From the NCBI GenBank assembly GCA_030679895.1, contig JAUXSN010000055.1, forward strand, positions 1-58,234: DNA of 58,234 nt, written 5' to 3'. The translations under genes were made by a program, and so were the position numbers. The stretch's first letter is position 1; every line of letters starts with the position of its first letter. Source of the stretch: Candidatus Moraniibacteriota bacterium. GTDB taxonomy: Bacteria > Patescibacteriota > Minisyncoccia > Moranbacterales > UBA11712. Shown in pieces: positions 44,177 through 45,406 of the stretch. The notes beneath the pieces are model-generated. The model worked only from the letters and a program-made list of their open reading frames with translations. It did no database searches and was not told the DNA's origin.

Positions 44177-45406
44177 TTAATTTCTATTTTGCAACATTTT
44201 CATGAGATCCAGATAAAATTTCAGGTTATGTATAGTCGCCAGTCTTCCGGCCAGCGGCTCCTGAACTGAAAAAAGATGGCGCAGATAGGCGCGGGTGTAA
44301 TTTTGGCAAGTGTAACATTTACATGTTTTGTCTATCGGAGAAAAATCTTTTTTGAACTTTTCATTCGTGATGTTTATCGTCTTGTAAAAATTCGCTGGCT
44401 TTGGAAGCTTAGCTTCCACCGTGGAAGCTAAGCTTCCATTTTTATCTTTCCAGACAAACAACGATCCGTGCCGCGCGTTTCTGGTCGGAATCACGCAATC
44501 AAACATATCAATTCCGTGCTTTACCGCGAAGACCAATTCTTCCGGACGGCCCAGTCCCATGAGATACCTCGGTTTGTCTTCGGGAAGCATCGGCAAAACC
44601 CATTCCAGGATTTCCCGCATTTTTTCTCGCGGCTCCCCCACCGCCACTCCACCGATCGCGTAACCGTCAAAGCCTAACTCGAGCAACTGTCGAGCAGATT
44701 CTTGGCGCAAGTCTTTATATACAGAGCCTTGGATAATGCCAAATAGCAAAGGCCTTCCAAGGTTCGACCTTTTCCTTCCCTGGCTATTCACCAGGGAATT
44801 CCCCAAGGTCGAACCTTTTTTTATTTTTTTATCAAAATAGTCTTTACATCTCTTAGCCCACCTCGTAGTTAGCTCCAAAGATTTTTTTGCGTATTCCCGG
44901 CTGCACGGATACGGCGGGCATTCATCAAGAACCATGATTATATCGCTGCCCAGAGCCAACTGAATTTCGATGGATTTTTCCGGAGACATAAAATGTTTTT
45001 TTCCGTCAATCGGGTCAGAAAATTCAACTCCTTTTTCGCTAATTTTTACTTCACCTATTCGAGGTCTCACCTCGAGCCGGCTCGAGGTGAGACCTCGAGT
45101 TTGCCGTTTCCCAGCCAGCGAAAAAACCTGATATCCGCCCGAATCGGTGAGAATCGGCCCGTCCCAATTCATGAAACTATGAATACCGCCTGCTTTTTGA
45201 ACCAATTTATGCCCCGGCCGAAGCCAAAGATGGTATGTATTCCCCAGAAGAATTTCCGCGCCTAAATTTCTTAATTCTTCGGGACAAAGATTTTTTACCG
45301 CTCCTTTCGTCGCGATCGGCAAAAAAAACGGCGTTTTGACCGTCCCGCTTTTTGTTTCTAATTTTCCCACTCGTCTTCTGTTATCTTTGTGTAAAATTTC
45401 TAACAT
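44177..45406 (-). CDS. tgt: tRNA-guanine transglycosylase
   Basis: [47 protein letters not shown]...H zinc site. Confidence 0.97.
44402..44438. repeat. 37-bp paired-hairpin palindrome, copy 3 (in frame in tgt)
   Basis: tggaagcttagcttcca-ccg-tggaagctaagcttcca. Confidence 0.95.
44757..44818. repeat. 62-bp three-hairpin element, coding copy in tgt
   Basis: Reverse complement matches 18287-18348 at 53/62; encodes [21 protein letters not shown]. Confidence 0.9.
45059..45098. repeat. 40-bp perfect palindrome in frame in tgt
   Basis: tcgaggtctcacctcgagccggctcgaggtgagacctcga; encodes [13 protein letters not shown]. Confidence 0.95.

What the first reader, a model, noticed from the sequence alone, without database searches (positions are those of the whole stretch)
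44402..45098. Tgt carries three independent palindromic inserts sharing a 'paired mini-hairpin' design
Seen: the 37-bp (44402), 62-bp (44757) and 40-bp perfect palindrome (45059) inserts are all in frame; the protein is 409 aa versus 375 aa for E. coli Tgt. Each insert is two 13-17-nt hairpins joined by a spacer (tggaagct-N-agcttcca, aaggt-nnn-acctt, tcgaggt-nnn-acctcga). Inference: different sequences with one architecture imply a shared generating or mobilising mechanism, possibly undescribed, that repeatedly hits tRNA-related enzymes.
Basis: partly seen in the sequence, partly recalled or inferred. Interest (0 to 1): 0.75.

Follow-up and report, generated by a model that had tools for sequence, protein, structure and literature searches.

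The report
Translated hairpin-pair repeats inside tgt
Three short palindromic DNA repeats sit in frame inside the tRNA-modifying gene tgt of a Moranbacteria (candidate phyla radiation) genome; they look like miniature versions of the known mobile "REP doublet" (REPIN) elements, but here they lie inside genes and are translated into extra protein loops.

Summary
Tgt (44177-45406, minus strand, 409 aa) carries three in-frame palindromes, each built from two mini-hairpins. Such doublets occur 0 times in 30 shuffles of the window and 0 times in 942 kb of non-CPR control loci.

They are repeat families, not unique inserts. The 37-bp element recurs with identical arms in LeuRS and in an unknown ORF of the window. 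It also occurs in GluRS, CysRS, GDH and Tgt genes from metagenomes, always in its only stop-free frame. The 62-bp element has an intergenic copy in the window.

Orthologous Tgt proteins carry many different palindrome-derived peptides in the same three loops. Occupancy across the tree is patchy, and one family appears in two reading frames. So these are repeated insertions, not ancestral loops.

The architecture matches REPINs, which are REP doublets that fold as one long hairpin or as two short ones. Related genomes encode RAYT-type tyrosine transposases (best fold match PDB 4ER8). Each examined RAYT gene is flanked by its own hairpin. Two of those hairpins differ from the Tgt arms by one compensated base pair.

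The mechanism is therefore of a known kind. The new points are the very small size, the translated intragenic location and the CPR host. The bias towards tRNA enzymes is suggestive only. No cognate RAYT is seen for this genome.

The parts
44177..45406 (-). tgt (queuine tRNA-ribosyltransferase), 409 aa, host of three in-frame elements
   Evidence: ORF. PF01702 and best hits named Tgt of Candidatus Moranbacteria. Catalytic and Zn-site residues are invariant in alignment A1.
44402..44438 (.). 'GSLAS' element: a doublet of 17-nt hairpins (TGGAAGCT-w-AGCTTCCA) with a 3-nt centre. Encodes [12 protein letters not shown] in the Tgt loop between the LFVW strand and FYKTINI (site 1).
44759..44817 (.). 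'E2' element: arms AAGGTtcgACCTT / AAGGTcgaACCTT flanking a 33-nt spacer with a central hairpin (44776-44798). Encodes [19 protein letters not shown] in the loop before PLLFGIIQG (site 2).
45059..45098 (.). 'E3' element: perfect 40-bp palindrome with arms TCGAGGTctcACCTCGA / TCGAGGTgagACCTCGA and centre GCCGGC. Encodes [13 protein letters not shown] after FSLAG (site 3).
2029..2065 (.). Second GSLAS copy (centre GTG), in frame in an unknown minus-strand ORF (1-2256, runs off the contig). Peptide GSLASTLEAKLP.
20123..20159 (.). Third GSLAS copy (centre TTG), in frame in LeuRS (18377-20881, minus strand), in a turn at the start of the editing domain. Peptide GSLASTMEAKLP.
18288..18346 (.). Second E2 copy, intergenic, just downstream of the LeuRS stop codon. 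Same arms with 1 mismatch, same 33-nt spacer length, spacer 25/33 identical, opposite orientation.
50072..50111 (.). Direct doublet of the hairpin CAAGGTCCGACCTTG in IleRS (49197-52133, minus strand). Peptide RSDLGN-VS-RSDLGN. It shares the AGGT-N3-ACCT core with E2 and E3.
34833..34849 (.). Solo E3-like hairpin TCGAGGTTTCACCTCAA inside a 153-aa ORF (34618-35079, plus strand). The orthologous gene in L082 carries TCGAGGTGAGACCTCGG.
38892..38939 (.). Two adjacent, different hairpins, intergenic: TACCCAAGAGCTtAGCTCTTGGGTA and TAGAGGTTtAACCTCTA. The first resembles the CAAGAG hairpins that flank RAYT genes of relatives.

Best explanation
The three Tgt inserts are miniature REPIN-like elements. 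Each is a doublet of a short REP-type hairpin in inverted orientation, and they belong to at least three repeat families that populate Moranbacteria genomes.

Shown:
- The elements are repeated, and their arms are far better conserved than the centre or the flanks.
- The 37-bp (GSLAS) arms occur only as doublets.
- Copies inside genes are read in a stop-free frame and fall in loops that are short in solved Tgt and LeuRS structures.
- The same loops have been hit repeatedly and independently in related lineages.
- Related CPR genomes encode RAYT-type HUH/Y1 transposases, each flanked by inverted copies of its own hairpin. These include hairpins one compensated base pair away from the GSLAS and E3 arms.

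Inferred:
- A RAYT encoded elsewhere in this genome binds the two small hairpins in single-stranded DNA (the 'clover' fold) as a dimer. It then cuts and pastes or copies the doublet, as proposed for REPINs and shown for IS608-type TnpA.
- Insertions favour A-rich stretches (Lys/Asn codons).
- Only copies that land in the open frame of a permissive surface loop survive. Under the strong deletion pressure of a small genome, copies inside essential genes are shielded from loss, so they accumulate there and then decay into lineage-specific loop sequence.
For: Architecture and repetition:
- Inverted hairpin doublets are present in the window and absent from shuffles and controls.
- Both folds are stable as DNA: -19 to -22 kcal/mol for the long hairpin and about -12 for the two- or three-hairpin fold. 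The REPIN paper describes the same duality and the less conserved spacer.
- There are 10 GSLAS copies across the window, L081 and the metagenome loci (L001 and L002 are near-identical contigs). Their 15-nt arm cores (GGAAGCTwAGCTTCC) are identical, the centres vary with a weak ACRRT consensus, and no singlets were found in 1.3 Mb even allowing 2 mismatches.
- E3 arms are near-identical in three Tgt genes about 75% identical at protein level, with centres GCCGGC, CAGCTG and GCTCGC.

Repeated insertion rather than ancestry:
- Among 120 Tgt orthologues the same three loops hold many different palindrome-derived peptides.
- Occupancy is patchy on an NJ tree.
- The E2 family occupies site 2 in two different frames or orientations: [19 protein letters not shown] versus KVRPFPSPTSRR.IPQGRT.

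Frame filter:
- GSLAS has stops in 2 of 3 frames in both orientations, and all copies use the open frame.

RAYT link:
- L085 6612-7280 hits Pfam Y1_Tnp above its cutoff, and its best NCBIfam hit is REP_Tyr_transpos.
- 1442 homologues were found, many named Moranbacteria, and some named RayT by JGI.
- HxH and Tyr are invariant.
- The AF2 model (pLDDT 86) best matches 4ER8, the REP-associated tyrosine transposase bound to a REP hairpin (E 3e-6), followed by IS608 and ISDra2 TnpA.
- Cognate hairpins lie next to these genes: inverted copies on both sides in L085, L086 and L089; copies on both sides in L007 and L088 whose orientation cannot be read or is not inverted; and in L090 upstream copies plus one in the CDS 3' end.
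- L086 and L088 hairpin CGAAGCTwAGCTTCG versus GSLAS GGAAGCTwAGCTTCC, with a hybrid copy in L088.
- L089 hairpin CCGAGGTctaACCTCGG versus E3 TCGAGGTctcACCTCGA.
- RAYT representatives carry GSLAS, RGLTS or GGS.S..EVEPP peptides in their own internal loop.
Against: - No RAYT or other transposase gene lies in the 58-kb window. The rest of the genome is not available, so the cognate enzyme for these exact arms is not shown.
- REPs and REPINs are by definition extragenic, whereas all known GSLAS copies are intragenic.
- The arms lack the GTAG or CGTC tag described for most REPs (title and abstract of PMC3733652).
- The elements are much shorter than described REPINs.
- Genome-wide copy number is unknown. 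The exact 35-nt pattern was absent from 185,579 representative genomes and found in only 6 metagenome contigs.
- No clean empty site or target duplication could be defined, because the nearest available orthologues are only about 75% identical.
- No insertion or excision polymorphism was seen (L082 versus L083).
Confidence: 0.7

Rival explanations
1. The palindromes are made locally by replication template switching or fold-back synthesis. A small hairpin is turned into an inverted duplication and quasi-palindromes are corrected to perfect ones. No dedicated transposase is involved.
For: The structure is nested (AGCT within a 17-nt hairpin within a 37-nt palindrome). E3 is perfect through its centre in two species with different palindromic centres, GCCGGC and CAGCTG. 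P0005 has KGSTLK where the window has the full E2, which is compatible with growth from a solo hairpin. The IleRS case is a direct duplication.
Against: Identical 17-nt arms sit in unrelated genes and in different metagenomes, which needs copying from a template rather than local generation. The third E3 centre, GCTCGC, is not palindromic. RAYTs with near-identical cognate hairpins exist in relatives.
Confidence: 0.1
2. The elements are kept because they do something useful: as protein-binding DNA sites, as mRNA hairpins affecting stability, processing or translation speed, or as peptide modules useful to tRNA-handling enzymes. Mobility would be secondary.
For: Arm sequences are exactly conserved while flanking codons diverge. 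All known GSLAS copies are in genes, and several are in class I aaRS genes or Tgt. RNA hairpins of -28 to -37 kcal/mol would form in the mRNAs.
Against: The same peptide sits in unrelated folds (TIM-barrel Tgt, LeuRS editing domain, GDH, unknown ORF). E2 occurs at the same loop in different frames, giving unrelated peptides. Sister orthologues lack the inserts. AF2 gives the Tgt inserts pLDDT below 50. A DNA or RNA site would work equally well between genes.
Confidence: 0.1
3. They are conventional MITE or RPE-like elements moved by a DDE-type transposase or an unknown enzyme, and the resemblance to REPINs is superficial.
For: In-frame palindromic elements without a known transposase exist in Rickettsia (RPEs; review PMC10969869). 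AA is frequent on both flanks of GSLAS copies and could be a short target duplication.
Against: No matching insertion sequence was seen in any locus. The arms are self-folding hairpins, as in REPs, rather than simple terminal inverted repeats. RAYT genes flanked by near-identical hairpins were found.
Confidence: 0.07
4. The inserts are ancestral Tgt loops of the lineage, or assembly artefacts.
For: All Moranbacteria Tgt proteins have somewhat longer loops than the solved 375-aa bacterial Tgt.
Against: Loop content differs radically between close orthologues and is patchy on the tree. The same DNA elements occur in other genes. They were assembled independently in JGI, ENA and Logan data.
Confidence: 0.02

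Closest known systems
REPINs (REP doublets forming hairpins) with RAYT transposases (Bertels & Rainey 2011, PMC3116915; E. coli TnpA-REP structure 4ER8)
   Same: Two inverted copies of a short palindromic REP with a less conserved spacer. They fold either as one long hairpin or as two small ones. The doublet, not the singlet, is the repeated unit. The RAYT gene is flanked by its cognate hairpins. Several families can coexist in one lineage.
   Different: The elements here are 37-62 bp with 3-33-nt spacers, against roughly 70-110 bp in Pseudomonas. They sit mostly inside protein-coding genes and are translated. They have no GTAG tag. The host is a CPR bacterium. The RAYTs are about 220 aa and carry a copy of their own REP in frame. 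The cognate RAYT for this genome has not been seen.
Rickettsia palindromic elements (RPEs; Ogata et al., as reviewed in PMC10969869)
   Same: Palindromic repeats inserted in frame into unrelated housekeeping genes, translated as extra peptide segments that appear compatible with the fold.
   Different: RPEs are about 100-150 bp, occur in Rickettsia and have no known transposase. The elements here are two to four times shorter, are hairpin doublets and are linked to RAYT-type enzymes in relatives.
IS200/IS605-family minimal derivatives (IS608 and ISDra2 TnpA systems, PDB 2VJV and 2XMA)
   Same: HUH/Y1 enzymes that recognise small DNA hairpins in single-stranded DNA. These are the second-best fold matches of the relatives' enzyme.
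   Different: Those hairpins are subterminal parts of a longer element that carries tnpA (and tnpB). Here the transposase gene is not part of the repeated unit.
Bacterial MITEs such as Correia, ERIC, Nezha and QMITE1
   Same: Short non-autonomous inverted-repeat elements that occasionally form in-frame fusions with host genes.
   Different: They are usually longer than 100 bp, have defined target duplications and DDE-type parent insertion sequences, and are mostly intergenic.

Membership tests
REPIN | Two copies of a short palindromic REP in inverted orientation separated by a short spacer | tested here: met
   The loop bases are complementary between arms (t/a, tcg/cga, ctc/gag) in all three Tgt elements. 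The IleRS doublet is direct instead.
REPIN | The doublet folds into one long hairpin, with an alternative fold of separate REP hairpins | tested here: met
   The minimum-energy fold is the long hairpin. The two- or three-hairpin fold is about -12 kcal/mol as DNA. Compare Fig. S11 of PMC3116915.
REPIN | REP arms more conserved than the spacer among copies | tested here: met
   GSLAS arm cores (15 nt) are identical in all 10 copies while the centres vary. E3 shows 1 arm change across 3 species and 3 different centres. E2 shows 1 arm change against a spacer identity of 25/33.
REPIN | The doublet rather than the singlet is the repeated unit | tested here: met
   For GSLAS, 20 arms form 10 doublets and there are 0 singlets in 1.3 Mb at up to 2 mismatches. 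E3-like solo hairpins do exist.
REPIN | Many copies per genome | tested here: inconclusive
   The 58-kb window holds 3 GSLAS copies, 2 E2 copies and 1 E3 copy plus 1 solo. The whole genome is not available. The exact pattern was found in only 6 metagenome contigs and 0 representative genomes.
REPIN | Extragenic location | tested here: not met
   All GSLAS copies, and 13 of 14 doublets in lineage loci, lie inside ORFs.
REPIN | A RAYT gene in the same genome flanked by the same REP | not testable with these tools
   None lies in the window and there are no other contigs of this genome. The feature is met in relatives for hairpins one compensated base pair away.
REP superfamilies with GTAG or CGTC tag (PMC3733652) | Conserved GTAG or CGTC tetranucleotide at one end of the palindrome | tested here: not met
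   The arms start TGGAAG, AAGGT and TCGAGG. GTAG-tagged palindromes do occur elsewhere in the lineage (L001 and L002).
RAYT (tested on the relatives' genes, not on the window) | Y1/HUH transposase fold and motifs | tested here: met
   Pfam PF01797 scores 27.1 bits against a cutoff of 23. HxH and Tyr are invariant. The best fold match is 4ER8, E 3e-6, TM 0.70 on the target.
RAYT (tested on the relatives' genes, not on the window) | NCBIfam equivalog NF047646 above its cutoff | tested here: not met
   It is the best and only hit, but scores 29 bits against a cutoff of 80. This is a divergent branch.
RAYT (tested on the relatives' genes, not on the window) | Gene flanked by inverted copies of a dispersed REP | tested here: met
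   Inverted copies on both sides in L085, L086 and L089. L007 and L088 have a copy on each side, but in L007 the upstream copy is imperfect and orientation cannot be read, and in L088 both flanking copies carry the same loop base. In L090 the copies lie upstream and inside the CDS 3' end.
Rickettsia palindromic elements | In-frame palindromic repeat inside unrelated protein genes | tested here: met
Rickettsia palindromic elements | About 100-150 bp, belonging to the RPE sequence families of Rickettsia | tested here: not met
   The length is 37-62 bp and the host is Moranbacteria. Sequence comparison with RPE consensus sequences was not done.
MITE | Target-site duplication and a parent insertion sequence with matching ends | tested here: inconclusive
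   AA is frequent on both flanks, but no clean empty site was available. No parent insertion sequence was seen in any locus.

The most novel reading that the evidence does not exclude
In Moranbacteria, and perhaps more widely in CPR bacteria, REPIN-type elements have shifted niche from intergenic DNA into the coding sequence of essential genes, above all class I aminoacyl-tRNA synthetases and Tgt. There they are translated and shielded from deletion, and they act as a recurrent source of new surface loops. Their RAYT genes carry the cognate REP or REPIN in frame, in the loop just before the HUH strand, which could couple transposase expression or activity to its own element. The preference for tRNA enzymes would then reflect real targeting or selection, not sampling.
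Probability: 0.3. Interest if true: 0.75.

Novelty: new variant of a known kind. Interest (0 to 1): 0.6.

Why it matters
REP and REPIN elements are treated as strictly extragenic. Here the same kind of element appears to live mainly inside genes and to be translated, in an organism with a very small genome.

If this holds, four things follow.
- It gives a concrete mechanism for the lineage-specific insertions and length variation seen in CPR proteins.
- It links in-frame palindromic elements of the Rickettsia RPE kind to a candidate enzyme class (RAYT/Y1 transposases), which has been missing for RPEs.
- It shows that three loops of one conserved enzyme can be re-colonised again and again by different families and in different frames. 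That makes a natural map of permissive sites.
- It warns annotators and structure modellers that peptides such as GSLAS..EAKLP, RGLTS..EVRPR and HPVK..FNRV in CPR proteins are repeat-derived.

Tried and rejected
- Exact 35-nt GSLAS pattern in 185,579 representative genomes: 0 hits. The element is confined to a narrow lineage.
This used one protein search for nothing.
- AF2 model of the window Tgt: mean pLDDT 67, inserts below 50. It is not usable for placing the inserts, so the alignment to solved Tgt was used instead.
- Sequence searches of the RAYT against PDB, with a single sequence and with a profile: no significant hit. Only the fold search worked.
- DNA for the insert-free sister orthologue P0005, and for P0002 and P0241, was not retrievable. 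P0290, the RAYT representative with a GSLAS peptide, is not on record. So no clean empty site and no exact cognate RAYT for GSLAS.
- Near-identical strains L082 and L083 differ by 4 substitutions and no indel, so there is no insertion or excision polymorphism to read.
- Rfam and tRNA scans of the window found nothing.
- The idea that a perfectly palindromic centre is a signature of hairpin-end replication was dropped after L084 showed a non-palindromic centre.
- Resemblance of the E2 arm GGTTCGACC to a tRNA T-arm was considered, then left as a coincidence for lack of any supporting feature.
- Restriction-site content of the arms (HindIII, XhoI, BsaI) was noted but is expected for nested palindromes.

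Full report
**The observation**

The window is a single 58,234-bp contig. Its Tgt protein finds best matches named Candidatus Moranbacteria (Parcubacteria, CPR) at 70-78% identity. Tgt is the minus-strand ORF 44177-45406, 409 aa.

The three palindromes are present as described.
- 44402-44438: two 17-nt hairpins and a 3-nt centre.
- 44759-44817: two 13-nt hairpins around a 33-nt spacer that holds its own hairpin.
- 45059-45098: a perfect 40-bp palindrome made of two 17-nt hairpins and a 6-bp centre.

In every case the loop of the second hairpin is the complement of the first. The arms are therefore inverted copies, not direct ones.

Each element is read through in frame. Aligned to a solved 375-aa bacterial Tgt, each corresponds to a gap in the solved sequence. 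All catalytic and zinc-site residues are conserved.

The pattern is not chance.
- No hairpin doublet appeared in 30 dinucleotide-preserving shuffles of the window.
- Folding energies lie 6 to 9 standard deviations below shuffles.
- A stricter detector found 14 doublets in 262 kb of lineage DNA and none in 942 kb of Tgt neighbourhoods from 57 non-CPR genomes.

**The inserts are repeat families**

The 37-bp element is here called GSLAS after its peptide.
- It recurs with identical arms at 2029-2065, inside an unknown ORF that runs off the contig, and at 20123-20159, inside LeuRS.
- A scan of JGI metagenome contigs for the arms with a free 5-nt centre found six contigs. Every copy lies in an ORF and is read as GSLAS-xx-EAKLP.
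- The hosts there are GluRS, CysRS, glutamate dehydrogenase, another Tgt at the same loop, and homologues of the unknown ORF at a different position.
- The element has stop codons in two of three frames in both orientations, and only the open frame is ever used.
- Across 1.3 Mb of fetched DNA the arms appear only as doublets and without a single mismatch. The centre varies, with a weak consensus ACRRT.

The 62-bp element (E2) has an intergenic copy at 18288-18346. That copy has the same arms, the same spacer length and 25/33 spacer identity.

The 40-bp element (E3) sits at the same Tgt loop in L082 and L084. Its arms there are near-identical, but the centres are CAGCTG and GCTCGC instead of GCCGGC, and the flanking codons have diverged.

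IleRS carries a direct doublet of a related hairpin.

**Insertions, not ancestral loops**

In 120 Tgt orthologues the same three loops hold a collection of different peptides, each the translation of a palindrome. Examples are GSLAS..EAKLP, GGSTS..EVEPP, GDSIS..EIESP, RGLTS..EVRPR, HPVK..FNRV, FLRSDLRK, PLLIKERG and AT-rich FEISNEF types. Other orthologues, including the window's nearest neighbour P0005, have short loops.

On a rough neighbour-joining tree, occupancy by GSLAS, E3 and GGSTS is patchy.

The E2 family occupies site 2 in two different reading frames or orientations. It reads [19 protein letters not shown] in P0001 and P0002, and KVRPFPSPTSRR.IPQGRT in P0017 and P0022. Vertical descent cannot produce that.

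The LeuRS copy sits in a turn at the start of the editing domain when compared with Thermus LeuRS.

**What it is**

The design matches the published definition of a REPIN. A REPIN is two inverted REPs whose spacer is less conserved than the REPs, which folds as one stable hairpin, and which has a less stable "clover" fold proposed to be the form recognised by a RAYT dimer (PMC3116915). For the three Tgt elements the DNA energies are -19 to -22 kcal/mol for the long hairpin and about -12 for the separate hairpins.

The window contains no transposase. A syntenic relative, L085, encodes a 222-aa protein with these properties:
- it hits Pfam Y1_Tnp above its cutoff;
- its only NCBIfam hit is REP-associated tyrosine transposase, although below that model's cutoff.

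It has 1442 homologues, many from Moranbacteria, and JGI names some of them RayT. A full scan of representative proteins found 14,142 clusters at E up to 0.001. An HxH motif and a tyrosine are invariant. An AlphaFold model with pLDDT 86 best matches PDB 4ER8, the E. coli REP-associated tyrosine transposase bound to a REP hairpin. The IS608 and ISDra2 transposases come next.

In all six loci examined the gene has copies of its own hairpin next to it. In L085, L086 and L089 these sit on both sides in inverted orientation. In L007 and L088 a copy lies on each side, but orientation cannot be read or is not inverted. In L090 the copies lie upstream and inside the 3' end of the coding sequence.

Two of these hairpins are one compensated base pair away from the Tgt arms.
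- L086 and L088 have CGAAGCTwAGCTTCG, against GGAAGCTwAGCTTCC for GSLAS. One L088 copy is a hybrid of the two.
- L089 has CCGAGGTctaACCTCGG, against TCGAGGTctcACCTCGA for E3.

RAYT representatives also carry GSLAS, RGLTS or GGS.S..EVEPP peptides in their own internal loop.

**Mechanism**

Shown: the anatomy, the repetition, the frame filter, the loop positions, the repeated occupancy of the same sites, and the presence of RAYTs with near-identical cognate hairpins in relatives.

Inferred:
- A RAYT of this genome mobilises the doublets through single-stranded DNA.
- A-rich flanks reflect a target preference. AA precedes the element in most copies and follows it in six of nine (AG in the other three).
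- Survival requires the open frame and a permissive loop.
- In a small genome under deletion pressure, copies inside essential genes persist longer than intergenic ones and then decay into lineage-specific loop sequence.

**The tRNA-enzyme bias**

Within the window, five of six coding doublets lie in Tgt, LeuRS and IleRS. tRNA-related genes make up about 20% of the coding DNA. My hand-calculated binomial p is about 0.002, and the test is post hoc.

In the unbiased metagenome scan, three of five distinct hosts are tRNA enzymes. Other doublet families hit IleRS (L010) and CysRS (L086). Non-tRNA hosts exist too. Many fetched loci were centred on Tgt, and the numbers are small. I treat the bias as suggestive, not established.

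**Novelty**

Full-text searches found no paper linking RAYT or REPIN elements, or in-frame palindromic inserts, with CPR bacteria. The kind of element is known. What is new is the very small size, the predominantly translated intragenic location, the CPR host, and the REP embedded in the RAYT coding sequence.

**Limits**

- The cognate RAYT of this genome is unseen.
- Genome-wide copy numbers are unknown.
- No empty site at the DNA level, and no mobility event, was observed.

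Noticed in passing
L085 6816-6838; L088 10171-10212; L089 1131-1161; L090 5161-5183; degenerate in L007 about 10537-10560 and L086 about 10181-10200: Every RAYT-like gene examined carries a copy of its own flanking REP hairpin in frame, in the loop just before the HUH strand. In L088 it is a perfect 42-bp doublet. The internal copy co-varies with the flanking hairpins between genomes. I know of no description of this, and it could be autoregulatory.
   Followed up: partly
window 2755-2865, 3495-3600, 24015-24115, 29560-29705; also in frame in IleRS around 50700-50750: Long imperfect inverted repeats built from CAAAGCGCAAAG / CTTTGCGCTTTG units fill several intergenic regions around the ATP synthase operon and elsewhere. 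The same unit occurs in frame in IleRS (peptide KLKAQSSKRKAL), which the L082 orthologue lacks.
   Followed up: partly
window 31176-31247: Intergenic inverted repeat TTCACCCTGTTAGAA ... TTCTAACAGAGTGAA. In relatives the same type of element is translated inside Tgt loops as HPVK...FNRV.
   Followed up: partly
window 31866-31892 (TatD) and 37337-37361 (M16 peptidase): Solo 12-bp-stem hairpins inside coding sequence (TTTTCACCCGCacgaTGCGGGTGAAAA and CACGATCACCGTcACGGTGCTCGTG). They may be REP singlets in genes.
   Followed up: no
L001 254-281 and 1223-1251 (same in L002): GTAG-tagged palindromes (GTAGAGACGCGAT|TAATCGCGTCTCTAC and GTAGAGACGAGGCAtTGCCTCGTCTCTAC) lie in frame in the same unknown ORF that also carries a GSLAS element. 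Classical GTAG-type REPs are therefore also intragenic in this lineage.
   Followed up: no
window 8485-8523, 11490-11512, 17539-17563, 37431-37451: Further solo hairpins sit at gene ends: CCAAGATCCGGTCTTGG; TTCCTAAAGttcgaCTTTAGGAA; TTTCCTAATCaacgaGATTAGGAAA; ACCTAACATtcgATGTTAGGT. Their relatives appear as doublets (L086 3204-3251) or inside Tgt loops and RAYT loops of other genomes (FLKLGFRK peptides).
   Followed up: partly
window about 52000: GC skew changes sign from negative to positive near 52 kb although genes stay on the minus strand. The region encodes two large Kelch-repeat/Big_13 proteins (52231-54609 and 55762-57711).
   Followed up: no
L007 (DATGZC010000105.1): This contig is labelled Candidatus Bathyarchaeia archaeon, but it carries a Moranbacteria-type Tgt (73% identity), synteny with the window and a Moranbacteria-type RAYT. 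It is probably a mis-binned contig.
   Followed up: no
L084 4315-6224 and L088 12794-15426: IleRS and ClpB are split into several short ORFs in these ENA contigs from one sample. This looks like frameshift errors of the assembly rather than biology.
   Followed up: no
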